Below are positions 10,244-37,800 of a DNA stretch of 64,000 nt, piece by piece. The stretch is from IMG/VR virus record IMGVR_UViG_3300008111_000001; one strand, given 5' to 3'. Within the stretch, counting starts at the first letter, position 1, and every line of letters starts with the position of its first letter. Source of the stretch: a virus. Position numbers and translations under genes: made by a program. The notes under the pieces were generated by a model. The model was not told the DNA's origin and made no database searches. It saw only the letters and a program-made list of their open reading frames with translations.

Positions 10244-10257
10244 TAGAAGGAATTTAA

Positions 10258-10710
10258 ATGAAATATGATGGTGATATAGCATATAATCAAGAGCATTATC
10301 AATATAATGGGTTATATGTAGTATCACCAGAGGCTTTTGGTTTAAGTCCTACATTTGGTAATTTAAATTTATTAAAAGTAATAGTCTTAAAGCCACCTTC
10401 TATAACAAGTACATTAGTTTTTGTTCCATCTCCCTCAGTAGTAATTCCAACCGGTGTTATAGAAAATTCGGAAACTTCTTCATCAATAGATTTTTCTGCA
10501 TTTGACGGATATGGTTCAATAGAGTTTGACAAAATCAATGCAGAAGCATATGCAATAGCAGGTTCTCAGGGAATCAATTCAGATAGCTCTGGTTATATAG
10601 CTATATCGGTAGATAAAAATGAATCCTATGCATTTGCTACTGCAGATACTATAGTTTTTGATAATAACTCTGCTGGCACAATAGATGTTACTATTATATC
10701 TAACGTATAA
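10258..10710 (+). CDS. Hypothetical virion-associated protein
   Basis: AAGGA RBS; beta-rich S/T/D composition; sits in the structural operon. Confidence 0.5.
   Translation: MKYDGDIAYNQEHYQYNGLYVVSPEAFGLSPTFGNLNLLKVIVLKPPSITSTLVFVPSPSVVIPTGVIENSETSSSIDFSAFDGYGSIEFDKINAEAYAIAGSQGINSDSSGYIAISVDKNESYAFATADTIVFDNNSAGTIDVTIISNV
10688..10695 (+). promoter_or_regulatory. Putative late-promoter motif TTACTATT
   Basis: About 32 nt upstream of ATG 10727 (AAGGGG RBS); could also simply reflect V-T-I codons. Confidence 0.3.
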
Positions 10711-10726
10711 ATAAATAAGGGGTTTT

Positions 10727-19644: not shown

Positions 19645-22600
19645 TTGGTTAGAGATCCAGGACCTATTCACAATCTAGGTTATAGCGTAACGTCTAGAGA
19701 CGTTCCAACTATGATTGATGAAGAAAGGGGAGATGCTCCTAACTCATCATTTATTTCAAAAGCACTAAATGATCATCCTGTTTTAAGATTCGTTTCTACT
19801 GCAGCCACCACTATGGCTTCAGCTTTTGTTTTATCAAAGCTCACAAAACAAGGTGGATTAAAATTAGCCAAGACAGTTCAAGATAGAGCAGACAGTGGCG
19901 CCAGCAGGTTTGCCTCTAATATTGTTAACGTATTTCCTAAAATTAGAAAAGAGTTAGACGAACTTTCTGGCGTTAGCCGAATGATCGACGGCAATACTCC
20001 GGATCAAATCGATCCTTATTCAAGACTTGTTTTTGAGACAGCAGAAGGCAAGCTAACTACTGGCGTTATAAAGCACACAGATCGAGGCTATCACTGGACT
20101 GCCGGTGAGATCAGAAGAAGTGGCAAGGGGTTAGAATATGAGACAGCTGGAATATGGGGTTTCCGAGAGGAGTCTCAAGCTCGTTTAGTCTCTTTGGCCC
20201 GTAGAACGGCCTATGAGCTCCCTGCAGTGTATGTAGGTCAGAAAGCTATAGTCGATCCAATTTTTGGTGGCAGAGACGATTCTAAGGTTAAATGGTACAA
20301 CCCTGTAGATGTATTGACAGACTTTGTTAAAGATTCTACGATCAACTTAGTTACAATGATGATTCCAATGGAGGTTGGCGGAGCTGCAATAGGCAACGCA
20401 AGATCATCGCTGTCTAATTTTAGATATTCAATGTCTGACCTCGCCAGGTCCACTGGATCAAGTGACCTGAAGACAAACTCTTCAAGGATGTTTGTTAATT
20501 TGGCTGACGTTATGTCTGAGGTTGGTCACGACTTAGCTGACATAACTCAAAAGGCTGTAAAGATTTCCGCTCAAACCAGCGGAGCCATTAAGGCAGCTAC
20601 CACAGAGTATAGCCAGCAAAGAATTGATATCAATGCAATTCTTTCAAGAACAAGAAATTTAAGAGCAAAACAAATATATGAAGACTCTAAAGGTTCAAAG
20701 TTAAAGAGGGCTAGAAATGTTGCGACTCAATATGCATTTGGTAATGACGCCAACGGTAACTCTGGATATTTAGATTTATTTCCTGGACTCAGGGGTGTTG
20801 GCAGCGCTGTAAGGCAGGGTGTAAATCAGTTCCGTAAGGTTGGACAAGGTTACGATGTAGTAACTAGGGCGATTGACTTTGATGCAGCAGTACAGAAATA
20901 CGGTGCTGCAAACCCCGACGCTTACAGAGGGCAATTAAAGGGTATAATAAACAATCTTCAAGCTAACTCTACCAATAGAATGTCTATTATGGCCAGTAAA
21001 ATGGCCAGAACATTTGGTGGGCCAATCGGATCAGATAGCTTTTACTCGTCAGAGTTCTATAAAGGAATGGAACAAACAGAGTATAAAAAGGTTTTATACA
21101 AATCTTTAATGGAAAAAACTGCAACATCAGATAGGGATGATTTTGCGAAAACTATAGCAAAGTTTATTGACGATATTGACATCAACAAAACAGCTATGGA
21201 GCCATCAAGAAGAGTAACTATAGGTGAAACTAAAATACTACTTGATGGCGATGAACCATTTGATGAAATAATAAATAGGTTCAAGGGAACCTTATCTAAA
21301 AATAGGGCAGATGAATTTATTCAAAAGGTTGGAAGCTCTGATGTTTTACAGCAGTCCATTATTGATGCCAACAGGCTTTTTTCTGGAGCAGAGTTTCAGG
21401 CAGCATTAAAAGCAAAAGCTAACAAAGGTTATAAAGCATTCCAAGAGCAGGGAATGTTTAAAGTGGCTGGAACAGTTTTAAAAACTAAAAGAGCAGATTT
21501 TGAAGATTTCCTTGATTTAGATAATTTGTCTTACGCACAAAAAGATTTTCTAATTAAAAGATCCGCTCAAAGATTGGGGATGAAACTCAAAGCAGCTGAT
21601 GGCAGAGATCTAAGTAGAGGAGAATTAGGCGAGTCTTTAGGTAAAGTTGGTCTTGATGTAAAAAATCTTGGTCAACTAAGAAGTTTTCTTGTTAGGGAAA
21701 AACAAATAAGTTCTGGTGTTTTTGCTAGTGGGTTTAATCTGTTAGGATTAAGACGGGCAACTGTTGATGAGGCAACCCAACGCGGATTGTTTAGTAATTT
21801 AGATGAAGAGACTCAAAGTTTTATTAATCAAATGTCTTCCAGCATGGTTAGGGCTGATCCAACAAAAACAGCTTCTAGCGTTTCTGTTCTTCCAGATATT
21901 TTTATTACAAAGACTGGTGGTATTCTAGATGTTTCTGGAATAAGGCAAACTGCAAGAAATGTAGGAAACTTTCTAGCCAATGATTTAAGAATACCTGTTC
22001 TTGGTTTTAATCCGGCAGACTTATTCGGTAAGCAGTCTTTTAATGAAATGTCTGGAAGGGCTCCCTTTCAGTTTATTCAGGGTAAAGTTTCACAGCCTTT
22101 CCTTCAAGGCGCAGACAAATCTGCTGACTTCTACTTATTCTATAGCGGTGGAAAAACAAAAGGTAAAGTTATGGCGTTTAATTATAACGTCATGGCTCAA
22201 CAGTATACTTCTAGAACCTTGGATGGAACCTTTAGGCCGCTAGCTAAAAACAGCTCACAAATGTTGACTCGTGCAGCTAGAAATGCCGCTGCAGAAAGAG
22301 ACGCCGAATCCCTTAATTCCTTAAATTATCAAGAAGGCACATTCAGAAGTAGATTTTTTTCTGGTCTATCAAGATTCGGTGTAACACCAGAAAGAGAGTT
22401 AAAATTTAGAGAAGCTTTTGATATTAACTATGATCAACCAAACTCTATATTTGGTTTTATGTCTAGATTTTCCAGGAGAAATATTGATCCAGAAAATCCT
22501 AGATTTTTTGCACAAGTAATATCTGGGAGAGATATTAATACAAAAGCGGGAACGCTGAGAAAAAACATTGTTAAAGACGCAGACGGCAATGTCCAAAGAG

Positions 22601-25600
22601 TTAATGTAATTAACGCTGATACTGGCGAAGAAATGGTTTCAGAAAAAGCTTTGTTGGAAGCTTTTGAAGGGTTTAGAAGAAGGGCATTTGGAGCTGGTTT
22701 TTCTCGACGTGCAATGAGAGCGATAGAGGATGCTGATCCGTCATTAGCTACGTATTCTGGCGTAAAAGTAAGTCAGCTTCAGAATGTTCAGGAAAAAATA
22801 GATTTTGCAAATGTGTTGATCAGAGGTGTCGACAGAGATGCAAATATTTTAAGAAGACAGGGCATAGACGCTGCTACATTGTTCCAAAGTAGAGAGAGAA
22901 TTAGGAAGGTATTAGAGGAGTCAGACTTGTTATCTGGTTCTCAGATACGGTCAGTTAGCCCAACGATTCTTACAAGAGAAGACCAATTAACAGACGAACT
23001 ATTTAAGTTTTTAATTCAAAGAAACGAATTAGTTTCAAATAGCACTAGGCAAACATTCGGTCAAAATTTTATTAAGATAAACCAAGCTCTTGCAAATATA
23101 GCCAAGGAAATGCCTGCCGGTGAGTTGGCTGAAGCGCAAGCGGCAGCATTTGGAGCATTAACCAACCTAAACTCAGTAAGGGCAAACAGATCTTTTCTAA
23201 AAGAAATTGAAGTTCAAAGAAGAGCTCTTGCAAATGTTATAGAGTCTTTAGAAGGTTCTCCGGAATTAGTTCAGCCATTTTTATCTGGTTCAATTGAAAG
23301 AGTTGGAGAAATAGGTAAACTTGGTTTAGCTAAAAAATTATTATATCCATCATTAAGCACGGCTTCTTTTAAAATATCGCATTTAGCAACAGATCCACTT
23401 GGTTCAGCTACTGGTCCTGGCGCTGACGTTTTGTTGGTTCCCACTTTTGGTAGTGTATTTGCCAGGAATCCTGTTGGAGCATTAAAGAGTGTTGCAGGAA
23501 TAAATACATACAGTAGTCCAGAAAGCTATTCAAACCTATCTGCTGCAGTATCTCATGGTGTTGAAAGACTTAATAAATATTTTGGCACAGTTGGATTACA
23601 GTTAGATGTAAATCAATATGGTTCTCCGTTAGATCTTTTTGCAAGGGGCATGGTAGGCAAAAGAGTTCTGCCACTCTATGCTGGCGGATTAGCTTTCATG
23701 ACCGCTGATAGAACAATTGGTGGGATGGTCAATGAAAAAGATGCAAGAGGAGAAAGGGTTTATTCTCCATTTTTTGTTGGGGCAGCGACAAAAGCTGTAG
23801 GACAAGTTCATGCATTAGGTGCTGGGGTTATGCCTGGTGGAATGAGCTATGAAGAGAAAAAGGAACAGCTTTTTGAGGGAGAGGTGCCGATAAGGCAGGG
23901 TCGTTTCTGGCCATTGGGTAATACTCCATTTATGGGCGGAAAGATAATGTATTACAGGCCAAGTATTTATCGCAAGATTGAAGCTGGCTCAATGTTTACT
24001 TCTGATACATATGGTTCCCCTATAGAAAGAGCCTTATTCTATACGGACATATCTCCACTACGTCCATTGGATCCATATCGCTTTGAAAGAAAGCATTATG
24101 AAGATAGGCCATATCCTATAAGTGGAGAATATTTTTCTGGTCCGTTTGGTCCACTAACTCCCGCACTAAACGCCACAGTAGGCAGGATATTAAAGCCTCA
24201 AATAAAAATGCACGAGCAAGAAGTTTCGCAAGCTTTGTCTAATTATGCTCCAGCAGGACAATCTGGAGCTTATGATGCAAGCGCTTACTTGCGACAAGTT
24301 TCCATGCCCATGTTGCCCGGACAGGCAGCTCAACAGCAATTTGGGCAAGCTTCCATCGGTGGATTAATACAGGGCGGAACCCCAATTATGTCTATGGGGA
24401 TTTCTTCTGGTGGACCTGGCCCAGGAATACAAGCATCAGCAAACGCAGAGTTGGCAGGCAGGGCGGGAGCATTAAACACCGCCAAGTATTCCACCATGCA
24501 GAGCATAGGACAGATCAATGGTCAGTATACCCAAATGGCATATGGTCCCCCAAAAACTCCAGGTATGATGCCTCCAAGAATAGTTGGTGCGGGATCACCG
24601 ATTTCTGTTGGCGATCCACAGGTGCAACTTCAAGATTTTGGATATAGAACTCAAGAAGCCTTAGGTATCTATGGTTTCGCTGGTGCCGCATTCAGAGAAT
24701 CTTTTGGATATGGTCAAGGAGATTTTGAACCACAAAGAGCAGTTTTGCAATCTGCCTCCAAGGCATATGGTATGAGTAGGCAGTTCTGGGATTATAATCT
24801 TGGCGGACTTGGTGACGTTCCAATGTTAGGTGGAAGAAATTTTGGTTCAATAGAATTTTCTGAAATAACTAGAAGATTTATACCAAAAGAAAGAACTGGT
24901 GTTGATTATCTGAATCCAATACAAAACACTATGGGCAAACAATATCCATTTTTGCCAGGGCCAGAATATTATTTAGATTTCACTAGAGGAGATCCTTTTA
25001 CCAAGGTTCAAGAAGGTGAACTCCGTTTGCCTGGAGTCGCTTACGAAAGATTGAATCAACTGCATTCAGATGAAACTGGAAGATATGGTTTATTAGATCA
25101 ATTTAAAATACTTGGAGATGTTGCCCCTTACTCTAAGCAGTATAGGTATTTAGATAAAAAAATTAATAGTTATTTAGATGATCCATCAGAAAAGCTGCAG
25201 GCTGACAGTATTAGAGAAAGAGTAGCTTCTATACAGCAGAGGGAAACTTTCTCTGAATATAGTCATGTCGGCAAAACTGCTCAAGAAGCTGGCACTAACC
25301 CTCTTGTTCACAATCTATCTAGAGCGGCAGAATATATTGCCCACAGAGATACTTTTATAAATAGAAAGTTTATCAATAAACAAACGGCAGTGGAGGACTG
25401 GGAAAGAAACAATGTTTACGGAGCTACATTCCCAGAGTGGCAGAGACCATTCGAAAGCTTCATAGAACCAATGATTAACAAAGCTGCTGACAGAAATCCA
25501 TTAGCAGCATCTGCAAGCTTGGCTGCTGCAGGACTTTTTGCGGGTAGAACGCAACCAGGAAAACTGGTCATGTCTGGCCTAGGTGCCATTACCGGATTAG

Positions 25601-26340
25601 CAGCTTCTACAGGGGCTAATATTCAAGAGGCAATAACTGGAGAAAGATTTATTCCAACGGAAAGAAAAAAGGAATTAGCTCTTGAAGAGTATTCTGATAT
25701 TTTAAGCTACGTAAAAAATACAAGATTAGCTAACATGGCGGAATCATCGGGGGACGCAGCAGCAGCTTTTCAGTTTAGATCAGCAGCAAAAAGGACAATG
25801 TATGGTGCGCCAATAGAAGATATTGGCACAGGCAAATATGGAAGCGATGTAGAGTCTCTTTCTTTGGCTATCCCTAAAAGAAAAAGGGAGCATTTTAAAG
25901 CAATGATAAATGCTCCAGAAGAAGATAGGGGAAGAATACTTTCTACGGCTGGAAGATTGGAAAGAAGAATATACGAGGCAGCGTGGGGTATGCCAGTTGA
26001 AAAACGTCCAGAATTAACAGATTATTTTAGTAGGCATGAATTACCCGATGAGGGATGGGAAGGTTGGCATCCAAATACAAATATGGATTCTGTTAAAATT
26101 AAAATAGGACAGCACATGGGTCTTGAAATGTCTCAAATGGGTTACTATCCTCAACAGATAAGAGAAGCTAATCTAGCCAATCCCAGCTATCCTCGGTTTG
26201 ATTATTCTTCAGATTCTAATGCAGACGTATCATATAGATTACGTTCTTTAATGAATGGCATGGGTGTTACTGGTTCAGTTACTCCGGTCATGAATCCGTT
26301 TGGTGGTCAGCAAATTGACATAAGTGCAGGGGTTAGGTAG
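19645..26340 (+). CDS. Tape measure protein (2231 aa, TTG start)
   Basis: Directly follows the chaperones; largely helical with several hydrophobic Gly/Ala segments; AGGGAA RBS before TTG 19645. Confidence 0.7.
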   Translation: MVRDPGPIHNLGYSVTSRDVPTMIDEERGDAPNSSFISKALNDHPVLRFVSTAATTMASAFVLSKLTKQGGLKLAKTVQDRADSGASRFASNIVNVFPKIRKELDELSGVSRMIDGNTPDQIDPYSRLVFETAEGKLTTGVIKHTDRGYHWTAGEIRRSGKGLEYETAGIWGFREESQARLVSLARRTAYELPAVYVGQKAIVDPIFGGRDDSKVKWYNPVDVLTDFVKDSTINLVTMMIPMEVGGAAIGNARSSLSNFRYSMSDLARSTGSSDLKTNSSRMFVNLADVMSEVGHDLADITQKAVKISAQTSGAIKAATTEYSQQRIDINAILSRTRNLRAKQIYEDSKGSKLKRARNVATQYAFGNDANGNSGYLDLFPGLRGVGSAVRQGVNQFRKVGQGYDVVTRAIDFDAAVQKYGAANPDAYRGQLKGIINNLQANSTNRMSIMASKMARTFGGPIGSDSFYSSEFYKGMEQTEYKKVLYKSLMEKTATSDRDDFAKTIAKFIDDIDINKTAMEPSRRVTIGETKILLDGDEPFDEIINRFKGTLSKNRADEFIQKVGSSDVLQQSIIDANRLFSGAEFQAALKAKANKGYKAFQEQGMFKVAGTVLKTKRADFEDFLDLDNLSYAQKDFLIKRSAQRLGMKLKAADGRDLSRGELGESLGKVGLDVKNLGQLRSFLVREKQISSGVFASGFNLLGLRRATVDEATQRGLFSNLDEETQSFINQMSSSMVRADPTKTASSVSVLPDIFITKTGGILDVSGIRQTARNVGNFLANDLRIPVLGFNPADLFGKQSFNEMSGRAPFQFIQGKVSQPFLQGADKSADFYLFYSGGKTKGKVMAFNYNVMAQQYTSRTLDGTFRPLAKNSSQMLTRAARNAAAERDAESLNSLNYQEGTFRSRFFSGLSRFGVTPERELKFREAFDINYDQPNSIFGFMSRFSRRNIDPENPRFFAQVISGRDINTKAGTLRKNIVKDADGNVQRVNVINADTGEEMVSEKALLEAFEGFRRRAFGAGFSRRAMRAIEDADPSLATYSGVKVSQLQNVQEKIDFANVLIRGVDRDANILRRQGIDAATLFQSRERIRKVLEESDLLSGSQIRSVSPTILTREDQLTDELFKFLIQRNELVSNSTRQTFGQNFIKINQALANIAKEMPAGELAEAQAAAFGALTNLNSVRANRSFLKEIEVQRRALANVIESLEGSPELVQPFLSGSIERVGEIGKLGLAKKLLYPSLSTASFKISHLATDPLGSATGPGADVLLVPTFGSVFARNPVGALKSVAGINTYSSPESYSNLSAAVSHGVERLNKYFGTVGLQLDVNQYGSPLDLFARGMVGKRVLPLYAGGLAFMTADRTIGGMVNEKDARGERVYSPFFVGAATKAVGQVHALGAGVMPGGMSYEEKKEQLFEGEVPIRQGRFWPLGNTPFMGGKIMYYRPSIYRKIEAGSMFTSDTYGSPIERALFYTDISPLRPLDPYRFERKHYEDRPYPISGEYFSGPFGPLTPALNATVGRILKPQIKMHEQEVSQALSNYAPAGQSGAYDASAYLRQVSMPMLPGQAAQQQFGQASIGGLIQGGTPIMSMGISSGGPGPGIQASANAELAGRAGALNTAKYSTMQSIGQINGQYTQMAYGPPKTPGMMPPRIVGAGSPISVGDPQVQLQDFGYRTQEALGIYGFAGAAFRESFGYGQGDFEPQRAVLQSASKAYGMSRQFWDYNLGGLGDVPMLGGRNFGSIEFSEITRRFIPKERTGVDYLNPIQNTMGKQYPFLPGPEYYLDFTRGDPFTKVQEGELRLPGVAYERLNQLHSDETGRYGLLDQFKILGDVAPYSKQYRYLDKKINSYLDDPSEKLQADSIRERVASIQQRETFSEYSHVGKTAQEAGTNPLVHNLSRAAEYIAHRDTFINRKFINKQTAVEDWERNNVYGATFPEWQRPFESFIEPMINKAADRNPLAASASLAAAGLFAGRTQPGKLVMSGLGAITGLAASTGANIQEAITGERFIPTERKKELALEEYSDILSYVKNTRLANMAESSGDAAAAFQFRSAAKRTMYGAPIEDIGTGKYGSDVESLSLAIPKRKREHFKAMINAPEEDRGRILSTAGRLERRIYEAAWGMPVEKRPELTDYFSRHELPDEGWEGWHPNTNMDSVKIKIGQHMGLEMSQMGYYPQQIREANLANPSYPRFDYSSDSNADVSYRLRSLMNGMGVTGSVTPVMNPFGGQQIDISAGVR

Positions 26341-26342
26341 TA

Positions 26343-29300
26343 ATGTTAGGAAAAATAGCTAGCTTCCTAGAAAGACGAAAGCAAGAGATTCCTGAATATG
26401 AATCTTTTACTGACTATATGGCTGCGTACCTGTCTCCTTTGTCCCCAGAAAAGCAGGTTAGGGCAGCTAGAAGAATAATGACTAAAATACCTAGTGGTCG
26501 ACTAATGGAACCATTTGTTGATCCAGCTGATAATATTTTAAAATATAGAGCATCTTACTTTGATCCAGAAGAGCAAGGCAGAAAGGTTTTCAATAGCGTA
26601 GACGACGCCATAGAGTATTTCTCTGCCCTGCATCTTACTGAAGTTTACAGACTATCAAAAGATGAAGTTCCAGTGGTTTATAGGGGTTATGGTCAGGTTA
26701 TAAGGGAGATAGAAAAGGTCGCTAGGGAAAAGAAACTTTTTGGAATAGAAGATCTTGAAATGAACATTGCCATCCATAAGGGTGGGCTTGATACTCAACA
26801 GGGCGCTGAGGCACTAAAAGCATTTTTTGATGCACAAAAATCAAAAGGCTACGGTTTACTTTTACCTACGGACGATGGTGGTATTGCATTAAATTTAGTT
26901 GCTACAATCGCTGGAAAAAAACAGACACTAGGATTAGATCAAACCTTAGAACTAATGCAGGCAGCAAATGTTTCGATCATAGATCCAGACGTATTGGAAG
27001 AAGCTATGAAATCTGGAAATAAAAAACTGTCTTCTTTAATTCAAAAGTTAGATAAAAGATTACGTGGCGTTTTGTCGCCAAGAGAAGTGTCCGTTTCTGG
27101 TGATGCACTAAGATCAATATTAGATGACGTTGGTAAGCCTGGTCTATCATTTGCTGATTCGATTCTTAACACAGATCCAGTGTTTGAGGCATTGGGGTTA
27201 GCTTTAGATGTTGATACGTTGAAAAATGTTTCAAAAATGAAAAACTCGGAAAAAGCCGCAGACGCAGCACAAAGAATAAGAGAGTCTTGGATGATTGGTG
27301 GCCAAGATAGATCTAAAGATTTTTATAAAATAATTTTAGATGAAGTAATTCAAGGGCAAAGCGGACCAAATAAAAAACTATTAGGTAAAGAAAGTCAAAT
27401 ATATTCAGATGTCAGTAGCTATTTGAAAATTGCTATGCAAGACGCCATAGATAGTGGGGAGGTGGATATTACTGTCGGAAAATATGGTACGGACGTTTTA
27501 AAAAGTAAGTTGGGATTATTAAAAGAGAGTTTAGAAAAAAGCGCAGCTGGTAACGAAAGTGCACTAGGAGAAATAGGTCAAAAATTTAGCATCATTGACG
27601 TCCTGCTTGATGAAATAGAAAAGGGATCAGACGGTTCTATGTTGATAAACGATCCGTACACTAGGGCTATTCAAAAAGGTTATCAGTCTGAAATAGATGA
27701 ATTGAACAAAAAATACGCACAGTCCACTAGTAGGCTAGAGAAAGAAAATATTCTTTTAAAGAGAATGGAAGTTGAAAGGTCAATGCGTCAGTTAGATGAG
27801 TCTAAAGGTTTGTCTCAAATAACTGTTCGAGGAAACGTTGTTTTTGATGCAGGGGATCAAACACGTCCTGCCAGAATATTTTCTTTAAAAGGCGCAGCAA
27901 TGAACGTTGAGTTTACTGGAAGATATACAAAATATTCCATCATTGCGCCAAAGGCGACTACCAAAAGAGAAACTAGAATATCTGGATTAACAGACATTTT
28001 AAACCTTTCTGGAACAGGTGAATCTAAGGGCGCAGTCTATGCAGACCCCATGCTTGACGCATTCCATTCAGCAGTATTTGGCTCACCTCAATCGCAACAG
28101 TTAGGTAGAGAGTATTCTGCGGCGTTGCAAAAAGAGTTAAATGAAATGTTAAAAGCAAACAGGATTGATGAAGGCGGAAAATTTTATCAATCTTTGTTAA
28201 AAGCTACTCAATCACAGTCTGAAGACATATTGGAGACCCAGCAGTTCTCACAAATGATGCACAGGACTATGGCAGAGGAAATACTTGAAATACATAGAAG
28301 CGGCGTTCCGTTAGATCAACATCCTAGGGCTATGAATAGAATTTTGGATTTTGCTCAAAAAGAGTTCTTTAAGATCAAAAAGGGAATTCCTCTACCAGTA
28401 ATGCCTGATGTTTACAGATTTGCTTTAAATGCTGAGTCCACTCAGGTTGGTATATCCAGTGGGAGAATGTTCTTAGATATGGCCGATCAAAATATTGCAA
28501 TGGATGAAGGATTTAGTCTTAGCACCACTCGTGTCAGATTCTCTAATCACAACCTATTAATGAGCGAAAGGGACGTTATTAGATTCCACCATGCTCTTGG
28601 TGGATTCGACCTTGACGACAAAGGCTTGCCGGTTCTTGGAACATATATGTCTAATGGTAAAAGACGTTTGGCTATGGCAATGGCTCGCCAGCCTACGGGT
28701 GCAGGTGAAATGATTGGCTTTGTTCGCTTTAATGATATTGAAAGTTATCAAGAGCTATTTGGGCATAACGCGGACTTCATGAAAACGTTAGGTCAAATGA
28801 TTTCAGATGAAGAGGAGAAGTTAGCGTATCTACAAGGTTCGGGTAGCTCTCCCACTTTGCAAAGATTAAATATATTAAAGCAGAATTTAGAAGGCAAATT
28901 TACATCTGAAGAAATGACACGAATTGATCAGTCTGGCTTATTGGATCAACTTGAGGATACGATAATAGATGTTAGAGATAGATTATATGGCGGAAAGGCT
29001 AGAACTTTTAATAGAGCATATTTTGAATCATTAGGTGTATTAAAGCAGGGCGCAAGTGCGGTTGATTTTTTTGCTGGGTCTAGATTGGTGGATTTTGCTG
29101 GAGTTGATCCAGGTTTAGCTTCTCTCGGTTTTCAAAAATTAAAAACTGAGGTCATGACAATGAATCTTGAAGATGATGTCTTTAAAGCTTTGGAACATCT
29201 TATGACAGATCAGCAAAAAACTCAACTAGGTGCAATTAGAAATCAAATACAAACCTTAAAAGCTCCAGCTTTTTCGGGGTTGCCAATACCAGGTTCCATT

Positions 29301-31412
29301 TACGATGATTCGACACAGCTAGCAGTACTGGAGCAAGCTCAAAAAGATTTAGATAAAGCTTCAAAAGATTTTTATAAAACGTTAAATAGTTTTGGATTAG
29401 ATAAAGACAAAACGGCCATTGCTATGAACAAATACTATCTTGAAACAATGGAAAAAGCTTCAACGGAAAACGCTAACAATCTTGGTAAGCATGTTAACAG
29501 GGCTACTGTAATTGCAGATGGTTTAAATCAATTCGAGAAAGCCTTTGGGTCTGATCAAGCAATCAACGATGCCCTTAGGCAAAAGGGCCTATTAATAGGC
29601 TTGCCATCGTCAGAAACCGCAGTGGACATGACTCAAACATTTACTTCCGGAAGATTAAAGTTAAAAATGGACGCTGAAGCCGCTGCCGATCTTAGATACG
29701 GTATGGATATTTTTAGAAGAATGTATGGAAATAACTTTGATTTGGAAGAGCACGGCGCAGAAATTGTTAGCAAGTATGGAGAAATGTTTGGTTACCTGCA
29801 GCACAGGGGGGACCAGCAATTTGTTCTGGATAAAGCTTTAATTAATTTCGGAAAGCTAAACCAAGATGACCTCAGATCTTTTGCTGAATCCTACATAAAA
29901 GGCGCTGAAGCAAGAATGGCTGAAGGAATAAAAACTGATGAAGATTTGACTGCGCTAAAGAATCTGTTTTCTAAGGGGGATGCTCCTAAAAAATCTCAAG
30001 TGATAAACGCACTAACAGATATAGGAGTAATTGGTAGAGGTAATCTTTCTAATACAATCGAAGTTGCCCAGCAAGCCGAAGATAGCATTAATGCAGCAAG
30101 AAAAAGATTTGGCGATAACATGAAGGAGTTAAGAGATACATTAACTTCTGGTATGGGTAAAAATGTCACTGAAGCACAGTTATCCGCAAAAGCTATTTTG
30201 GACGCAAATCAGGATATTTTTGATGAATTGATGCAAGCTAATGCCGCCTATAGAGAAACGCAAAAAATTCTTAAAGAAGGAATACAGGATGGTCAATTTA
30301 TCGATTCTGCTAGAAGAGCAGAATTGACTGTGGGCTCTGATCGAGCTAGGATAAGAGCGGAAATATTAAGAACTCAATTAGGTGATAGTTTCTTGAGCGG
30401 AATTAATGAGGTTAGATCACAGAGAGCTTTAACTGGATTTAATCTAATAAATGCACTTCAGTTGGAGGCTTTAGATCGTGGAATGAGCTCATATGTTTTT
30501 GAACAGCTAACAGATTTAACAGAGAATTCAAATGAAGAGTTTGCTAACTTTTTTGCTAGAGTTAATGCAGCTAAAAGAAATAAAGCAGCTTATACAAAAG
30601 CTACTTCAAATATGCAAGTTAGAAATATTGTTGACAATTTCTTTAATGCTACCTCGTCTATGAGAGATGTGCTTCTTAGGGATATTTCTGGAGGAGGAAT
30701 TTTAGATCTTTCTCAGTATGGTGATGTTTCAGGGATGTTTGCAGACTTGGGTGTTGATATGCAACAGTTGGGCCAGGCTGTTGGAAAAGGGGTTGAAGAC
30801 ACTACGGATGAAAATATAAAAATTATATCCAATGCGATAAGAGCTAGAGCTTTATATGAAAGAGATATTTTGGATCCAGCAGTAGATGACTTTTTGAACG
30901 GTCAGATATCTGCAGATAAAGTGGTTGGCAAGAAAGACAGACCTAAGGGTATAGTTGGAGATGTTTTAAGGGAGCTTGATGAGCAGTCTCCATCAAATGT
31001 AAATCCATCTAAATTTAAACGTTTAGATATGGATTATTTGACAGAACAATTTTCTAAGCCTTCCGTTCAAAAAACGGCTATCGCAGCTGGCCTTTTGATA
31101 GCAGGAAGCTTTCTTTACCAAAATAAAAAAGATAAGACAACAGAAGACGCAGCAGGGCCACCACTGCTTCCTGGCGGATCAGCATATGAGCAAGGATACC
31201 CTAGTCCCAATGTTTCTGTTCCACAAATTGGTGGTGGCGGATATTCTTCCGGAATGAGCTATAAGGTTTCCTTATATGGTTCGAGGCAAGATGTTGAAAG
31301 GTTCCAACAAGCAGCTTCTGGACTTACTAATGGATCGATTAACAGTACTATGTATAATAGGATCCCCAGTGTGACGTCTGATCCATATCAGCAGCTCGCT
31401 AGCTCATTTTAA
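26343..31412 (+). CDS. Putative virion single-subunit two-barrel RNA polymerase-like protein with C-terminal membrane helix
   Basis: Ordered motifs resembling YonO/cellular RdRP: KLDKRL....S (aa 235-245), SDGSMLIN (D430), ITVRG..LKG..IIAPKATTK (R496, K516, K541), LGGFDLDDK (D756, D758, D759), MARQP (R782), NLGKHVN....IAD (1047-1059), TAVD (D1095). Confidence 0.6.
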   Translation: MLGKIASFLERRKQEIPEYESFTDYMAAYLSPLSPEKQVRAARRIMTKIPSGRLMEPFVDPADNILKYRASYFDPEEQGRKVFNSVDDAIEYFSALHLTEVYRLSKDEVPVVYRGYGQVIREIEKVAREKKLFGIEDLEMNIAIHKGGLDTQQGAEALKAFFDAQKSKGYGLLLPTDDGGIALNLVATIAGKKQTLGLDQTLELMQAANVSIIDPDVLEEAMKSGNKKLSSLIQKLDKRLRGVLSPREVSVSGDALRSILDDVGKPGLSFADSILNTDPVFEALGLALDVDTLKNVSKMKNSEKAADAAQRIRESWMIGGQDRSKDFYKIILDEVIQGQSGPNKKLLGKESQIYSDVSSYLKIAMQDAIDSGEVDITVGKYGTDVLKSKLGLLKESLEKSAAGNESALGEIGQKFSIIDVLLDEIEKGSDGSMLINDPYTRAIQKGYQSEIDELNKKYAQSTSRLEKENILLKRMEVERSMRQLDESKGLSQITVRGNVVFDAGDQTRPARIFSLKGAAMNVEFTGRYTKYSIIAPKATTKRETRISGLTDILNLSGTGESKGAVYADPMLDAFHSAVFGSPQSQQLGREYSAALQKELNEMLKANRIDEGGKFYQSLLKATQSQSEDILETQQFSQMMHRTMAEEILEIHRSGVPLDQHPRAMNRILDFAQKEFFKIKKGIPLPVMPDVYRFALNAESTQVGISSGRMFLDMADQNIAMDEGFSLSTTRVRFSNHNLLMSERDVIRFHHALGGFDLDDKGLPVLGTYMSNGKRRLAMAMARQPTGAGEMIGFVRFNDIESYQELFGHNADFMKTLGQMISDEEEKLAYLQGSGSSPTLQRLNILKQNLEGKFTSEEMTRIDQSGLLDQLEDTIIDVRDRLYGGKARTFNRAYFESLGVLKQGASAVDFFAGSRLVDFAGVDPGLASLGFQKLKTEVMTMNLEDDVFKALEHLMTDQQKTQLGAIRNQIQTLKAPAFSGLPIPGSIYDDSTQLAVLEQAQKDLDKASKDFYKTLNSFGLDKDKTAIAMNKYYLETMEKASTENANNLGKHVNRATVIADGLNQFEKAFGSDQAINDALRQKGLLIGLPSSETAVDMTQTFTSGRLKLKMDAEAAADLRYGMDIFRRMYGNNFDLEEHGAEIVSKYGEMFGYLQHRGDQQFVLDKALINFGKLNQDDLRSFAESYIKGAEARMAEGIKTDEDLTALKNLFSKGDAPKKSQVINALTDIGVIGRGNLSNTIEVAQQAEDSINAARKRFGDNMKELRDTLTSGMGKNVTEAQLSAKAILDANQDIFDELMQANAAYRETQKILKEGIQDGQFIDSARRAELTVGSDRARIRAEILRTQLGDSFLSGINEVRSQRALTGFNLINALQLEALDRGMSSYVFEQLTDLTENSNEEFANFFARVNAAKRNKAAYTKATSNMQVRNIVDNFFNATSSMRDVLLRDISGGGILDLSQYGDVSGMFADLGVDMQQLGQAVGKGVEDTTDENIKIISNAIRARALYERDILDPAVDDFLNGQISADKVVGKKDRPKGIVGDVLRELDEQSPSNVNPSKFKRLDMDYLTEQFSKPSVQKTAIAAGLLIAGSFLYQNKKDKTTEDAAGPPLLPGGSAYEQGYPSPNVSVPQIGGGGYSSGMSYKVSLYGSRQDVERFQQAASGLTNGSINSTMYNRIPSVTSDPYQQLASSF

Positions 31413-31877: not shown

Positions 31878-34800
31878 ATGTCTAATATTGAGCAATCAGA
31901 AAATGAAGAAGAGCAGAATTTAAACTCATCTGATCCGTTGTCATACGATTACAGTAGCAAAGCTTTTGTAAATATGATAATGATTGGCCCACTTGGCTTG
32001 ACTAATAGCCTGGATAGCATTACGGATAATCCAGCAGAAGCTATTAAAAGATTCTTTTCTTTAACAAGACCAGATGTCATTCCTGATATAGATACTTTAA
32101 AGGATGGTCAGGCAGAAGACTTCAAGTCGGACCGGGACAATTATTCAAATAGAATAGAGGCTACCACTAGAGTGTTTACATCTGGTGGGACTCTGTCGTC
32201 GCTTGTTGACGACGGTGCATTGTTAATTAACTTATATAAAAGATTAGAATCTACAGGTTTACTGTATTTGGCTTCGTTTGCTTATGAAATAAGTGAGTTC
32301 GGCAAGAGGAGGCTGCAAAATGTTTATATGACTCAAAAGTCATTAGACTATCATGTAGATCCAGCAGTAGATACTGAGTGGCTCACTCTTTTAAGTCAGG
32401 TTGTTTATAATCTCCAGGCAGATCCTATATCTTTTTCTATTATAAATCATTACCTTCCCGGTTTAATGACATTTGTCTTTGATGCCCTAGCTGTAACTGG
32501 AGATTATTCAAACGCAGGAAAAGGCGGTGGAAGCGAAGACACTCTTAATAGAGAAGAAGACGCTGTTGAAGAATTAGAAAAAGCTTTTGGTGTTGCTCCA
32601 AATGGTGAACCAATATTCACTATGGCATTTAGGATTAATGGTGGAAATACTTCTGCAAGAATTCGCAAAGCGATAGAAGACTTCCCATATAGAGCAAATA
32701 TACCTCCTAAGAAACCTGATATTTTTCATTTACGTTTAGGCGCAGCAAACTTTTATGTACCGCCTATTTCCGTAACAGTCAACTCTGCATTCAAAACTGG
32801 ATCTCTTACAGGTGGGGCAATCAGACAAAGAAACACGCCAAAATATAATGCAGGATACAAAGAAACCTCAATTTCATTAAGATTATTTTTTCCAAACTAT
32901 GAAGAAATATGGGGCATGCACATAAGCGATGCTTCATCAATAGATCTTAAAGAAGGTTTTAAAATAGATTTTAAGAATTCTGGTGATTCAGAAGAAAAGA
33001 TAGATAAGTTCTTATCTTCTTTGCGTGGACTAATAGCAGCTTTTAAATACTCCCCGATACTGCCAATAAAAAATGATTACATAAACTCTGTTCATGGAAT
33101 CTCGGCGGTTGCACTATCTTCAATGTCTATTTCTACAGTTCCTAATTATCCATTTTCTCTGATGGTTGATCTGGAGCTATTTGCCTATAATCACAAGCCA
33201 TTCTTGCCAATGATTAAAGATTTTAACCAAGCAATTCACTGGGGCAAATACAGACAGTATATGGGCAAGGCTGCCGGCGCAATGCACAAATATGCCAATG
33301 AATCATTTTTGCTGAAAACTTCTGATAATAGAAACTCTGAAGAAACGCAAGATAATACTGGCATCATCCGCGATGGTTCTTATATATATCAAACGAGCCC
33401 TTATGGCGCATCCCTGACAAGTGAATCTGCTTTAGTGGATTCGTCTTTGACAGATGATACCTTGGAATTACTAAACACATATGAGGATGATGTTTTATAT
33501 ACTAATATAATTTCTCAATGGCGAGATGGTAGTAATTTAAGTTTTTACACTCCCGCTGAAACACAAACTAAAATGTTTTTACCTGACACTTCTTCATTTA
33601 GAAGTGAACAGGAAAAAATTCTAAATCAAGAAAGCTATGGGTTGTGGAATGGCTTATTGGCAAAATTTGGGATTGAAATTTCTCCTAATACGCCAGCAAT
33701 TCGTGACTTGGGTCAAATGAAGTCTCTTTCTTTAGAGCCAACATTCCCCCCATCCACAAGGACACTTGTTCGAGAATTCGTAGATATAGTTACCGCTGGC
33801 GTCAGCCAAACGGACTATAGAGATGGAATCTATAAATATAAAATGCAATCGTTTATTTCAAGCAATTTGACTAAACTGACTGCAGAAGAAAAAGAATGGC
33901 TTTTAAATTATTTAACACCAGATGAAATGCCATTTGATGCAGATTATTTTACTCAATATTCAACAGAGGGATCATATATATTAAATGATCCAGTTTTTAA
34001 TAATGAAAACGATAATGTAAGTTTAAACTTTGTTAAAAGAAGTATATGGAATTCAGTTCTTAATTCAGGAAATGTTATAGATACTTTGATTGTCGAAGAG
34101 ACCGAAAGAAGAAAAATTTTAGGTACTGAATCAACGCTTCCCGATGAAGAAAAGATTCGTCAACAAGTAACCGATGCTTTCTTAGTTTCGCTTTACAATC
34201 GCTTTTTTTCTGATGGTTACGTTCAAAATTTAATGAATGCTAAACGTTTGAAAGAAGGAGATTATCACTTCCAGGAGTGGGAAGTTCCGATGAATCGAGT
34301 AGATCTAGATCCTAAGAAAGCTATAGTTAACGGTGTTAGCGTAAGCCTTGGAAATAATCTTGCAAAACTACAAGTACAGATGCAAGAAGAGCCTACTTAT
34401 CAATATATAGGTGGAAAAGATTCGTATATCAATATATCCATGACTGTTTTTGGTGAAAGAGAACTCTATAAGATTAGAGCAATCTTTGACCATATCAATA
34501 GTTTGGCAAGACTAGAGCATTCTACTGGTGTTATTGGTTTCTTAGGAATCAAAAACATTATTAGCGCACTATGTGGAATTAAGTATGTTATCCCACTTAA
34601 CTTTAAAGTTGATACCATACCTAATTATCCACATGTCTATAATGTTCAGTTAAGTTTTGTGGACTTTGATATATTTCAGCAGCAACGAGAAAAGCTATCA
34701 TCAAAGCAGCAACGCGATTTTATTGATCATTTTGGATCAAAGAGAAATCCTTTCCTAAGAATTAAGCAATTGTGGGGAGCATTTAATGCATACCCCGATA

Positions 34801-37800
34801 TGCCGCTGGAAGTTCGCGATAAAGAAAATGAAGTAGTTGGCAATTTAGATCCAGATTTCTATTTCAGAAGTTTTGAAATGTTTGATAAAGATGTCATTAA
34901 TAATTTTATCTACCAACCAGATATAACAAAAGATTTTAAATTTGATTATAGTGATGACTGGGCAAAAGTTGGAGACGCTCGTGCTATAGAAATTAGAAAA
35001 AATCAAGTCAAAAATAGGATCACAGATTTTCTTAGAAGATACGCCTATAGGGATGTAGCAAATGAACCATTTGCTGCAGCACAAAGGGCAACTAATAATA
35101 AAACATTGATTAATGAAATAATAGACTACGTTAACACTAGTGGTATAAGTGTTCATAATTTTATTAGCCTTTTCAAAGAAGTAGTGCAAGCGGAAACTTC
35201 TGAGTTTGAAACTTCGCAAAAGCAAGCTCTATTAACCGATTATATTTTCATTGCTGCTCAATCAACTGAAGATAGTCCAGTATTTGATGAGGTTTCTGGA
35301 GCTGGATATTCTGTCGGGAACATTAATTATTCTGGTGCTGAAACGTTAAATCTAATTAAACAGGTTTTGACAGATTCTCATTTAGCTAATGAGACAGAGG
35401 TTAGTTTTAATCCAGATGAAGTAGATTTCCATAAAGTTATATATATGATTCCGGCAACAAATCCGCAAGAAACTGGATCTGAATCAGAGATACCAGCAAT
35501 GATGCAATCCGCATTAGGTACTCATTTTGGTTATATCAATAAAGATAATGGAAGATTCTACCTAACAGTTGATGGCTCGAATGTTCACATAGATGATAAT
35601 GGGGATAAAAGATTATCAGAAAATCAAATTGAAGATACACAAACTCCAGATAAAGGATGCACAAACACTCTTACTGGAGTTGAAGGTGTTCAATCATTGG
35701 ATAAATATCAAAAAGCATATGATGGCTCTTTTGGCGGTCACATACAAAAAATGATGAACGACGTCCAGTATAGAGACATATCCGGAAGAATGATTAGAGC
35801 ATTTCCTACGTACATGCTGTGGCTCATCGATGAAGGTGGTTTTTTTGCTGGCGTTAAATTGTTTGACAATTTCTACGGATTACAATCCATAGTTGACTTC
35901 TCTGTTGTTTCCTCAGAAGATCTTTTGGGTGATACCCTAATATTTAGGGTGTCCAATATGTATTCAAAGTTGACTACACGTCCTTCAACTGAAATTTTTA
36001 ACTCTAGAGACAATCAGCCAAATGATGCTCCCATAGATTTTACCCAAGGAATTGAGTCTATCTTAGATAGAACTCTAAATATAGCTAAAAATATTGTTTC
36101 TGGTATGAGAAATGACTATGTAGTAGACATAAATAATATTAGATTAAAGCCTGGTGTTCGCGTACATTTGAGAGTTGGTTATGGGGCTAATCCAAACTCT
36201 CTACAAACAGTTTTTAATGGCGTAATAACAAACGTTGAGCAAGGTGAAATTGTAACAGTAACTGCACAGTCTGATGCTATTGAGCTTGGAGCAATAGTTA
36301 ACTCTACAAATAAAAAGGGTGACACGGGTAAGATAGATGGTGGCGTAGATACTGGAATGTATTTGTCGGAGCCTAGAGATCTTATGGTCAGACTGCTTTC
36401 AATGGGGGCATCTAGATTTAGAGAAGCTTTTGCTAGAGCTACAAATGGAACGGTATTTTCTGAAAACAGATTTGGAATTCGTCACTTTGGCTCGACACTA
36501 TATGAGCCTTTAAGCGATTCAGAAAGAGCAAGGGCAGACGGAATTAGAAATGTTGTAGCAAGTGTTTATTCTAATCTTGGTCAAGGAGATGTTGGCGGAG
36601 CTGCCAACGCAGCGTCATTTAAATTGGCAACTAATGTATTCCAAAGAAATCCCGTCAACGCATTTTTTGGGGATGGAAAAATTATGACCAGTATGGGTCA
36701 ATTAATGTCCAACTTCTGCGCAGAAGTTGATTTGGAAATTTTTAAAAGAAATATTTATCCAGGAAACGGAACAGGTTTTGCTCAATTCCTTGGTGGCGAT
36801 ATAGATGACGGATGGTTAACCGCTTCTTCATTAGTGGAAGAAGACGACAAAAAATTAAAAGGACAGGCATACCTTGAAAGAGGCGTGGACAGATCGTGGA
36901 ATAGATTAATAGTAGAGGCTCAAAATGAGTCAGTTTCAGCAAGAACAGCTATTGCAACGATGACTTCCGGTAATCAATTAGTGTCCGCTGAAGGCAGAGC
37001 TAATGCAACAAAGAATGTATTGATGGGCGGATTGGCTGGTTCTATAGGTCTCATCCCTGGAGTGAGTTTTGCTGCTGGTGCAGGTCTTTCTGGTGGCGGA
37101 TTATTTGGCTTATTAAGAGGAAGAGGCGGCACTAACCTTTTCAGAACATTGGGAATTCTTGCACCGAACGCTGATGATGATTTGCCCGGTTTTGATGAAG
37201 TTTCATTTAGGGCTCAAACATACATGAGAACGGTATGGGATCTTTTCCAGGTATGCGCTAGGTTGCTACCTAATTATATTGTTGCTATTAGGCCCTTCGA
37301 GGACAGGTCCACTATATTCTACGGTAAACCTCATTGGCTTTATACTTCTGGTGTCGTACCGGTAACTACTGGATTCCCTAGTACCGAAAGAGGTTCGGAG
37401 TTAGAATTGCCAGGGTATCCAAGGTACCGTTCGCCGGACGAAGATATTGAAAATATTATGAACAATATTAATAGATCAAGTAATACATTAGCTGATTACG
37501 AAGCATTCAAGAGATCCAATGAATTGTCTGACACAATGGCAAGTTTAGCCAGCGATCAACTAAATGCCGAGGGGATATATAAGCCTACAGCATTTTTGAA
37601 AGAAAAGTTAATTAACTTTAATTCACCATTGGCTTCAAGTTTTTCTGAAACACAAGAAGATGGCTCAACCAGAATAGTGGCAAAACTGCCAGCTGTTGTT
37701 GGATTAACTAGAGTCGGATTCCATCTTCCAGTTGGAGACCCAGCTACAACTATAGCTCCAGCAACAGAGTCACACGCTCAGTTGGATAATCTTCCGCCAA

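What the first reader, a model, noticed from the sequence alone, without database searches (positions are those of the whole stretch)
28380..28740. Catalytic barrel appears permuted and has DLDD instead of DxDGD
Seen: the R-x-P loop (AMAMARQPTGAGEMIGF) comes after the aspartate motif, joined by a predicted hairpin (GLPVLGTY-MSNG-KRRLAMAMAR). In beta-prime, YonO and RdRP (NRxP..H, KNP..HPGD) it comes before. The motif is D-L-D-D-K, one residue short of DxDxD. Known: strands 3 and 6 are neighbours in a double-psi barrel, so such a hairpin is feasible. Inferred: a new RNAP subfamily with a rewired active-site barrel, or an inactive relic kept for a structural role.
Basis: inference. Interest (0 to 1): 0.8.

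Follow-up and report, generated by a model that had tools for sequence, protein, structure and literature searches.

The report
Phage RNA polymerase with rearranged active site
A 1689-residue protein in the tail gene block of a roughly 200-kb phage has the fold of the "two-barrel" RNA polymerases, but it binds metal through D-x-D-D instead of D-x-D-x-D and carries the R-x-P substrate-gating loop after the aspartates rather than before them, an arrangement not described in any known member.

Summary
ORF 26343-31412 (1689 aa) reads LGGFDLDDK at aa 752-760 and RQP at aa 782-784. They are joined by a confidently predicted 11+11-residue beta-hairpin.

- **Conservation:** in about 250 distinct homologues D756, D758, D759, R782, P784 and E789 never vary. 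The position of the canonical first Asp is always Gly or Thr.
- **R-x-P position:** 252 of 281 members have no R-x-P within 70 aa upstream; most members have one 26-35 aa downstream. In phage RNAPs gp64, gp96 and gp66 it lies 38-39 aa upstream.
- **Databases:** nothing in Pfam, PHROGs, NCBIfam, PDB sequences or the literature matches.
- **Context:** the gene sits where the tape-measure gene lies in Bacillus phage 0305phi8-36, in fixed synteny. It is the only recognisable RNAP in five complete genomes of about 205 kb.

Strand order could not be read, because model coordinates are not exposed. True strand transposition (about 0.5) and a canonical barrel with an added hairpin (about 0.3) both remain open. 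An inactive relic is unlikely. First readers flagged the same motif on two other genomes in this scan.

The parts
26343..31412 (+). ORF of 1689 aa (P0001): RNAP-like protein. The two-barrel core lies within about aa 200-1170, followed by a C-terminal helical part with one membrane helix.
27627..27650 (+). SDGSMLIN; D430 is invariant (215/215).
27810..28052 (+). First (beta-like) barrel region, aa 490-570. Q492-x3-R496 (R 216/226), K516 (K 203, R 12 of 224), K541 (232/233), V-Y-x-D568-P. Spacing K516-K541 is 25 residues, against 24 for QDE-1 K743-K767.
   Evidence: PMC9508822
28371..28394 (+). Small beta-hairpin aa 677-684, before the Pro-rich loop IPLPVMPD. It covaries with the RQP loop and with strand 790-795.
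28410..28433 (+). Strand aa 690-697 (VYRFALNA), R692 241/248. DPBB alignments start here. It covaries with strand 737-740 and with the strand after the Asp loop.
28461..28505 (+). Variable, indel-rich segment aa 707-721 at the canonical R-x-P distance from the Asp loop. It has no conserved R-x-P.
28515..28595 (+). Strand 725-734, turn N-H736, strand 737-740, helix 742-751. Reading gp96 748-794 against P0001 724-770 without gaps, by eye, gives the same order of strand, strand, helix, Asp loop, strand.
28596..28622 (+). Metal loop L-G-G-F-D-L-D-D-K (aa 752-760). Family pattern is [LG]-G-[GT]-[FY]-D-x-D-D. The ends of the structural alignments to gp96 and gp62 put D758 on the third canonical Asp and G754 on the first.
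28620..28691 (+). Long beta-hairpin: strand 760-770, turn N771-G772, strand 773-783. The register is supported by covariation (770-775, 765-778, K760-Q783).
28686..28709 (+). R782-Q-P784-T-G-A-G-E789. R, P and E are invariant. This is the candidate 'Pro-gate' loop, with the same 8-residue length as the loop in gp96 (RNPVMGHG).
   Evidence: PMC9508822
28710..28727 (+). Strand aa 790-795 (MIGFVR), hairpin partner of 773-783 (covariation 778-795 and 780-793).
29481..29639 (+). Downstream invariant block: L-G1048-x-x-V-N1052-R1053 and D1095 (212/212), within long helices. This is a candidate bridge-helix and trigger-loop region (inference).
31074..31178 (+). Hydrophobic helix TAIAAGLLIAGSFLY (aa 1578-1592) followed by the conserved GPPLLPGG motif.
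19645..26340 (+). Upstream neighbour of 2231 aa, conserved in 78/80 related loci. Its C-terminal half resembles virion protein ORF145 of Bacillus phage 0305phi8-36.
31423..42992 (+). Downstream neighbours of 148 aa and 3704 aa (PHROG 'endolysin' match), conserved in 69 and 66 of 80 loci.

Best explanation
P0001 is the founding example of an undescribed family of single-chain two-barrel (double-psi beta-barrel) polymerases of roughly 200-kb contractile-tailed phages. It is encoded in the tail module at the tape-measure position. It is most likely delivered with the DNA and transcribes the first genes, as P23-45 gp96 does.

Its active site keeps the parts of the superfamily but wires them differently:
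- The metal loop is G-F-D-x-D-D. The canonical first Asp is lost and an extra Asp sits directly after the third.
- The R-x-P 'Pro-gate' loop, which in QDE-1 reads the 2'-OH of the RNA 3' end and of the incoming NTP, is not upstream. It is carried by a beta-hairpin directly after the strand that follows the Asp loop.
- Because that hairpin is paired along its whole length, R782-Q-P784 ends beside D759/K760. This is where canonical strand 3 delivers R-x-P.

My preferred reading is that strands 773-783 and 790-795 take the places of canonical strands 3 and 4. That would be a non-circular transposition of the strand 3-4 hairpin to the C-terminal side of strand 6.

Shown: the sequence facts, their invariance, the overall fold class and the synteny. 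Inferred: the spatial equivalence of R782, catalytic activity, presence in the virion, and the strand replacement.
For: - **Asp register:** the ends of the gp96 and gp62 alignments place D758 on the third Asp of 779-DFDGD-783 and of DYDGD-326.
- **Invariance:** D756/D758/D759 248/248, R782/P784 249/249, E789 256/256, K541 232/233, D430 215/215, D1095 212/212.
- **R-x-P position:** no upstream R.P in 252/281 members; 280 of the 281 fall in the commonest downstream classes, +26 to +35. It is upstream by 38-39 aa in gp64, gp96 and gp66.
- **Hairpin:** both models show it, and covariation supports it, including K760-Q783, 778-795 and 780-793. Strand 690-697 flanks the post-Asp strand on the other side. 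No coupling links segment 715-721 to that strand.
- **Strand order:** the DPBB order 3-4-2-5-1-6 makes strands 1 and 3 the only neighbours of strand 6 (PMC11258233).
- **Role of R-x-P:** PMC9508822.
- **Context:** fixed synteny in 66-78 of 80 loci. The gene occupies the slot of the 0305phi8-36 tape-measure gene. Five complete genomes hold one copy each and no beta'-type RNAP. The T7-type search found nothing, but its control rang nowhere, so it is uninformative.
Against: - No sequence-level link exists to any RNAP family.
- Coordinates could not be read, so strand neighbours are deduced from DSSP strings, alignment ranges and covariation at Neff of about 150.
- Covariation favours an antiparallel 693-697/737-740 pair, whereas a DPBB has strands 1 and 5 parallel. 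The ring I propose is therefore not cleanly confirmed.
- Sequential alignments of aa 690-770 to whole DPBB domains (49-72 aligned residues) fit an intact canonical barrel that ends before the RQP hairpin.
- No biochemical or virion evidence exists, and no cultured phage carries the gene.
Confidence: 0.5

Rival explanations
1. Same enzyme family, but the catalytic barrel is canonical. Six strands in the usual order lie within aa 690-770. The canonical strand 3-4 loop has simply lost R-x-P. The RQP hairpin is a family-specific addition after strand 6, either packed beside the barrel or inserted into its wall, that brings a replacement Arg-Pro to the active site. On this reading the motif has migrated and no strand has been transposed.
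For: - DPBB proteins and gp96 align sequentially to model residues 43 to about 122 (aa 690-769). Between 49 and 72 of those 80 residues align, and the alignments end at the strand after DLDD.
- Read by eye without gaps, aa 724-770 follow the same order of elements as gp96 748-794 (strand 4, strand 5, helix, Asp loop, strand 6; sequence).
- Semi-conserved hydrophobic positions (L711, I718) and a local hairpin 707-714/715-721 could be degenerate strands 2 and 3.
- gp64 and gp66 also seem, by inspection of sequence, to have a short strand after strand 6.
Against: - Strand 6 has only two sides. AF2 pairs the RQP strand with it along all 11 residues, and covariation puts strand 690-697 on the other side. 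That leaves no room for a canonical strand 3.
- Neither model predicts a strand at aa 707-714.
- The 698-724 segment is the most indel-rich part of the domain.
- No covariation links 715-721 to 760-770.
Confidence: 0.3
2. A pseudo-polymerase. The two-barrel fold is retained as a structural or ejection component of the tail (tape-measure-like or channel-forming), and polymerase activity has been lost with the change of DxDxD to DxDD.
For: - The defining DxDxD triad is not met.
- The protein sits in the tape-measure slot and has a C-terminal membrane helix.
- It evolves faster (18-37% identity) than both giant neighbours (40-66%).
Against: - Three Asp, R782, P784, E789, K541, D430, N1052 and D1095 are invariant or nearly so across about 250 members at roughly 20% overall identity. 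A purely structural role does not explain this.
- The conserved residues correspond in kind to the metal ligands, the Pro-gate loop and the basic residues of QDE-1 (PMC9508822).
- Natural split forms keep both halves.
Confidence: 0.12
3. Not a polymerase homologue at all. The fold match is a coincidence of a large helical protein with small barrels, and the invariant D-x-D-D/R-Q-P/E cluster serves another Mg-dependent activity, for example a nuclease, a nucleotidyltransferase or a DPBB-type cell-wall lyase used during entry.
For: - Foldseek finds nothing at E<0.1.
- No profile-level similarity to any RNAP was found.
Against: - Five of the top 14 of 48,161 chains are the single-chain two-barrel RNAPs, and they are the only rows with 256-410 aligned residues.
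- Independent domain-level alignments put the D-x-D-D loop on the catalytic loops of gp96 and gp62.
- The order of conserved motifs along the chain parallels QDE-1 (PMC9508822).
Confidence: 0.08

Closest known systems
Neurospora crassa QDE-1 and plant RDR2 (eukaryotic RNAi RNA-dependent RNA polymerases, PDB 7Y7P/2J7N, 7W84)
   Same: - Best structural matches over 380-410 residues spanning both barrels and the following helices.
- Single chain.
- Same order of Q-x-R / K / K in the first barrel and an Asp loop in the second.
- An invariant R-x-P loop is present.
   Different: - No Pfam RdRP match.
- The metal loop is D-x-D-D, not D-Y-D-G-D.
- R-x-P lies 26 aa after the Asp loop, not 45 aa before it.
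- It is a phage tail-module protein with a membrane helix.
Thermus phage P23-45 gp96 (tape-measure-fused virion RNAP, PDB 8H2M/8H2N) and gp64 / P74-26 gp62 (non-virion RNAP, 8F5M)
   Same: - Phage single-chain two-barrel RNAPs with almost no sequence similarity to others.
- gp96 is physically part of the tape measure, and P0001 occupies the tape-measure slot (PMC10770324).
   Different: - gp96 and gp64 have canonical DFDGD/DYDGD with R-N-P/R-R-P 38 aa upstream.
- hhalign finds no relation.
- P0001 is a separate 1689-aa gene in a contractile-tailed phage of about 200 kb, and no fused form was found up to 3845 aa.
crAss-like phage phi14:2 gp66 (virion RNAP, PDB 6VR4)
   Same: A giant virion-delivered single-chain two-barrel RNAP encoded among structural genes.
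   Different: - DFDID with R-I-P 39 aa upstream.
- No profile similarity.
- It did not appear among the listed structural matches.
Multisubunit RNAP beta' double-psi barrel (NRxPT...NADFDGD)
   Same: - The local pattern strand, R-x-P-T, 8-residue loop, strand resembles aa 776-795.
- The pattern strand, helix, [FY]-D-x-D, strand resembles aa 737-766.
   Different: - The order of the two elements is inverted.
- The first Asp is absent.
- No PF00623 match in the protein or in five complete relatives.

Membership tests
Two-barrel (double-psi beta-barrel) polymerase superfamily | Overall architecture: two facing barrels plus following helices, superposable on solved members | tested here: met
Two-barrel (double-psi beta-barrel) polymerase superfamily | D-x-D-x-D aspartate triad in the catalytic barrel | tested here: not met
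   The family-wide motif is [FY]-D-x-D-D. The canonical first-Asp position is G (222) or T (26) of 248, never D.
Two-barrel (double-psi beta-barrel) polymerase superfamily | R-x-P (Pro-gate) loop between strands 3 and 4, about 38-45 aa upstream of the triad | tested here: not met
   Absent upstream in 252/281 members. An invariant R-[QDT]-P lies 26-35 aa downstream instead. It is upstream in gp64, gp96 and gp66 and in QDE-1 (PMC9508822).
Two-barrel (double-psi beta-barrel) polymerase superfamily | Two conserved basic residues supplied by the second barrel | tested here: inconclusive
   K516 (K 203, R 12 of 224), K541 (232/233) and R496 (216/226) lie in the upstream beta-rich region, with QDE-1-like spacing (PMC9508822). 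Their placement in the active site was not checked on coordinates.
Two-barrel (double-psi beta-barrel) polymerase superfamily | Template-dependent nucleotide polymerisation | not testable with these tools
   Needs biochemistry.
Canonical double-psi beta-barrel topology (strand order 3-4-2-5-1-6, sequence order 1 to 6) | Six strands in canonical sequence order | tested here: inconclusive
Pfam RdRP (PF05183) / RNA_pol_Rpb1_2 (PF00623) | Profile match above the curated cut-off | tested here: not met
   No Pfam family at E<=0.1 apart from a spurious Enkurin hit. PF00623 is absent from five complete related genomes.
Virion-delivered, tape-measure-associated RNAP (P23-45 gp96 type) | Encoded in or at the tape-measure gene | tested here: met
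   The gene lies after the chaperone-like genes and the ORF145-like gene, where 0305phi8-36 has its annotated tape measure. This synteny holds in 66-78 of 80 loci. Position only; it is not homologous to ORF146.
Virion-delivered, tape-measure-associated RNAP (P23-45 gp96 type) | Present in virions and transcribing pre-early genes | not testable with these tools
   No cultured phage carries the gene.

The most novel reading that the evidence does not exclude
An active polymerase whose catalytic double-psi barrel has undergone a non-circular strand transposition. The strand 3, R-x-P, strand 4 hairpin has moved from between strands 2 and 5 to after strand 6, together with a one-residue register shift of the metal triad (DxDxD to xxDxDD). 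This would be the first two-barrel polymerase with a rewired catalytic barrel. It would show that the oldest polymerase active site tolerates both a change of connectivity and a change of metal-ligand spacing.
Probability: 0.4. Interest if true: 0.85.

Novelty: new variant of a known kind. Interest (0 to 1): 0.72.

Why it matters
In every two-barrel polymerase I could check in the literature held here (cellular RNAPs, QDE-1-type RdRPs, archaeal PolD and the phage enzymes), the signature is DxDxD with R-x-P upstream. Those two motifs are also how new members are found. This family, with at least 232 clusters at 50% identity and roughly 200-kb phage genomes that have terminal repeats, escapes all such searches and all profile libraries.

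If it is active, several things follow:
- The superfamily's metal site can work with a D-x-D-D spacing.
- The NTP-gating loop can be supplied from a different place in the chain. This bears on how the barrel evolved from its duplicated half.
- A second, independent case joins P23-45 gp96 of a polymerase placed in the tape-measure slot, this time in a contractile-tailed phage.
- A large group of uncultured phages, which otherwise encode no recognisable polymerase, would gain an explanation for how they start transcription.

Tried and rejected
- **Sequence libraries:** Pfam, PHROGs and NCBIfam gave nothing for P0001. A profile against all PDB sequences gave nothing below E 0.29. tblastn against 50,697 phage records found no match.
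- **hhalign of the family profile** against phi14:2 gp66, gp96 (aa 1-1200) and gp64 gave probabilities of 0.1-0.3%. The 20-residue 45%-identical match to gp64 lies after its DYDGD, so it is chance.
- **Covariation:** mean-field DCA was dominated by gap artefacts. Pseudo-likelihood DCA (Neff about 148) confirmed the hairpins but could not fix strand orientations or close the barrel ring.
- **More sequences:** the search for longer or fused forms added only about 15 new sequences and no fusion up to 3845 aa.
- **Neighbours and relatives:** 0305phi8-36 ORF146, the positional equivalent, is not homologous and has no D-x-D-D. A canonical DxDxD motif in neighbouring giant ORFs is absent. There is no second paralogue in five complete genomes. 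The search for T7-type RNAP in those genomes returned nothing, but its control also rang nowhere, so it is uninformative.
- **Literature:** searches for the motif and for DxDD two-barrel enzymes found nothing relevant.
Full report
**What is there**

The finding (nt 28380-28740) lies inside a 1689-aa ORF, 26343-31412 on the + strand (P0001). The window is part of a 98.6-kb IMG/VR virus record judged 47% complete. It carries a major capsid gene and a tail-sheath gene. P0001 lies between a 2231-aa ORF and a 148-aa plus 3704-aa pair.

- L752-G-G-F-D756-L-D758-D759-K760 at nt 28596-28622.
- R782-Q-P784 at nt 28686-28694, 26 residues downstream.

**Is it more than chance?**

P0001 has no match in Pfam, PHROGs, NCBIfam, PDB sequences or 50,697 phage records. 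It does have many uncharacterised relatives:
- 67 from a word-seeded search.
- 105 IMG/VR loci, 80 of them kept.
- 232 clusters at 50% identity in an exhaustive HMM search of 1.84 billion representatives.

The IMG/VR loci were seeded with the GGFDLDD peptide, and the word-seeded search may also favour it. The exhaustive HMM search is the part of the set that is free of this bias.

In 248-256 distinct sequences, many only 18-25% identical to P0001, conservation is as follows:

| Residue | Conservation |
|---|---|
| D756, D758, D759 | 248/248 |
| R782, P784 | 249/249 |
| E789 | 256/256 |
| D430 | 215/215 |
| K541 | 232/233 |
| D1095 | 212/212 |
| R692 | 241/248 |

The family motif is [LG]-G-[GT]-[FY]-D-x-D-D. 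The residue before the aromatic, where canonical enzymes have their first Asp, is Gly (222) or Thr (26) and never Asp.

Of 281 members, 252 have no R-x-P within 70 residues upstream of the motif; 280 of them fall in the commonest downstream classes, 26-35 residues downstream. For comparison I read three solved phage two-barrel RNAPs from their records. R-x-P lies 38 residues upstream of DYDGD in P23-45 gp64, 38 upstream of DFDGD in P23-45 gp96, and 39 upstream of DFDID in phi14:2 gp66. In QDE-1 it is R962-x-P964 before D1007/D1009/D1011 (PMC9508822).

So the observation, including the inversion of motif order and the shortened triad, is real and family-wide.

**What fold is it?**

AlphaFold2 on aa 200-1210 with a 43-sequence alignment gave pLDDT 81.5 and pTM 0.79. 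Foldseek found nothing significant, but QDE-1 ranked first.

VIA-align was run against every one of 48,161 PDB representatives:

|---|---|---|---|
| P74-26 gp62 | 7.4 | 325 | |
| maize RDR2 | 6.7 | 383 | |
| P23-45 gp96 | 6.4 / 6.2 | 256 / 319 | two crystal forms |

A separate model of aa 648-836 was less confident (pLDDT 69) and gave only weak matches. The list is nevertheless telling:
- gp62.
- Five other DPBB-fold proteins: UFD1, Pex1/6 N-domain, the designed msDPBB_sym2, Sec18p N-domain and a barwin-like protein.

gp96's catalytic loop is 779-DFDGD-783 (PMC10770324). gp64's loop, and by inference gp62's, is DYDGD at 326. Counting back from the ends of both alignments puts D758 on the third canonical Asp, D756 on the second, F755 on the aromatic and G754 on the first. 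This assumes no gaps in the last strand.

I therefore accept that this is a two-barrel polymerase homologue with its D-x-D-D loop at the catalytic position (about 0.85-0.9).

**The rest of the active site**

In QDE-1 the other barrel supplies Q736, R738, K743 and K767 to the RNA and the NTP phosphates. The R-x-P 'Pro-gate' loop reads the 2'-OH of the 3' end and of the incoming NTP (PMC9508822).

P0001 has Q492-x3-R496, K516 and K541, in that order. The K-K spacing is 25, against 24 in QDE-1, and all are highly conserved. Together with the invariant R782-x-P784, this is the constellation expected of a working enzyme, not a relic.

**Is the barrel permuted?**

This is the crux, and I could not settle it, because the tools do not expose model coordinates. 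The following can be said.

1. Both models show two 11-residue strands, 760-770 and 773-783, joined by a two-residue turn. An 8-residue loop beginning at R782 follows, then strand 790-795.
2. Pseudo-likelihood covariation (Neff about 148) recovers these hairpins (770-775, 765-778, K760-Q783, 778-795, 780-793). The other top couplings that can be checked against DSSP are also correct. By hairpin geometry R782-Q-P784 therefore lies beside D759/K760.
3. In a DPBB the strand order is 3-4-2-5-1-6, closing 6 to 3 (PMC11258233). Strand 6 has only strands 1 and 3 as neighbours.
4. Covariation places strand 690-697, where all DPBB alignments begin, next to the post-Asp strand and next to strand 737-740. 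No coupling links the 715-721 segment to the post-Asp strand.

If 690-697 is strand 1, the RQP strand must sit at the strand-3 position and 790-795 at the strand-4 position. That is exactly where canonical enzymes carry R-x-P. The loop length (8) and the hydrophobic pattern also match gp96, gp64 and gp66.

Four points count against it:
- Aa 690-770 align sequentially to whole DPBB domains with 49-72 residues and end before the RQP strand.
- Read by eye without gaps, aa 724-770 show the same order of elements as gp96 residues 748-794, from strand 4 to strand 6 (sequence).
- Two semi-conserved hydrophobic positions (L711, I718) and a local hairpin in the variable segment could be degenerate strands.
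- Covariation favours an antiparallel 693-697/737-740 pair, whereas strands 1 and 5 of a DPBB are parallel.

My estimates:

| Reading | Probability |
|---|---|
| Transposition of the strand 3-4 hairpin | about 0.45-0.5 |
| Canonical barrel with an added or inserted RQP hairpin | about 0.3-0.4 |
| Model error or another arrangement | the remainder |

Either way the Pro-gate loop is supplied from the C-terminal side of the Asp loop, which is new.

**Context and likely role**

The order 209-aa / 2231-aa / RNAP-like / 148-aa / 3704-aa is kept in 66-78 of 80 related loci. The two giants are 40-66% identical, while the RNAP-like protein is only 18-37% identical.

The C-terminal half of the 2231-aa protein resembles virion protein ORF145 of Bacillus phage 0305phi8-36. 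In that phage the next gene, ORF146, is the annotated tape measure, and the one after it is a giant 'endolysin'. P0001 therefore occupies the tape-measure slot but is not homologous to ORF146.

P0001 ends with a hydrophobic helix (aa 1578-1592) and a conserved GPPLLPGG tail.

Five complete genomes of 202-210 kb (four of them with terminal repeats) hold one copy each, no second paralogue and no beta'-type RNAP. The T7-type search was uninformative because its control failed. In some relatives the gene is naturally split about 80 residues after the motif, for example 754 + 762 aa in L032.

By analogy with P23-45 gp96, a tape-measure-fused virion RNAP that transcribes pre-early genes (PMC10770324), I infer that the protein travels through the tail with the DNA. 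It would anchor by its C-terminus and transcribe the first genes. This step is inference only.

**Novelty**

No paper in the library contains the motif or describes a D-x-D-D two-barrel enzyme. The 23 RNAP-family alignments in the supplement of PMC10770324 do not contain it.

First readers of this scan flagged the same protein on this genome and on two other genomes. None of those notes had been checked.

I class this as a new variant of a known kind: a two-barrel, tail-associated phage RNAP. Two defining sequence features of the superfamily were tested and not met.

Noticed in passing
L032:6954-9218 and 9322-11610; also L036, L038, L039; L051 7440-11761 (= G002): In several relatives the RNAP-like gene is split into two ORFs about 70-90 residues after the D-x-D-D motif (754 + 762 aa in L032). 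In L051 it is in three or more pieces, and the downstream match contains three in-frame TAA codons.
   Followed up: partly
P0050, P0051, P0053, P0060 and two more (relatives; variable loop equivalent to window about 28500-28515): One clade carries G-R-[MI]-P-G exactly 38 residues upstream of the first Asp, which is the canonical R-x-P distance, in addition to the downstream RQP. This could be a relic of the original loop or chance.
   Followed up: no
window 19645-26340 and 31878-42992: Both giant neighbours are much better conserved across the phage group (40-66% identity) than the RNAP-like protein between them (18-37%). The 2231-aa protein shares its C-terminal half with virion protein ORF145 of Bacillus phage 0305phi8-36 and with proteins of Moorella and Acinetobacter jumbo phages.
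   Followed up: partly
window 31878-42992: The 3704-aa protein matches PHROG 20474 ('endolysin') at aa 1289-1540. This parallels the giant ORF147 'endolysin' of 0305phi8-36 at the same position.
   Followed up: no
window 31074-31178: The C-terminus of P0001 (hydrophobic helix, then GPPLLPGG..YE and a Gly/Ser/Tyr-rich tail) is among the best conserved parts of the protein outside the active site.
   Followed up: partly
G001-G005 (complete genomes of 202-210 kb holding L049, L051, L061, L064, L073): These genomes encode no beta'-type RNAP and only one copy of this family. Later transcription presumably uses the host polymerase. The search for T7-type RNAP had a failed control.
   Followed up: partly
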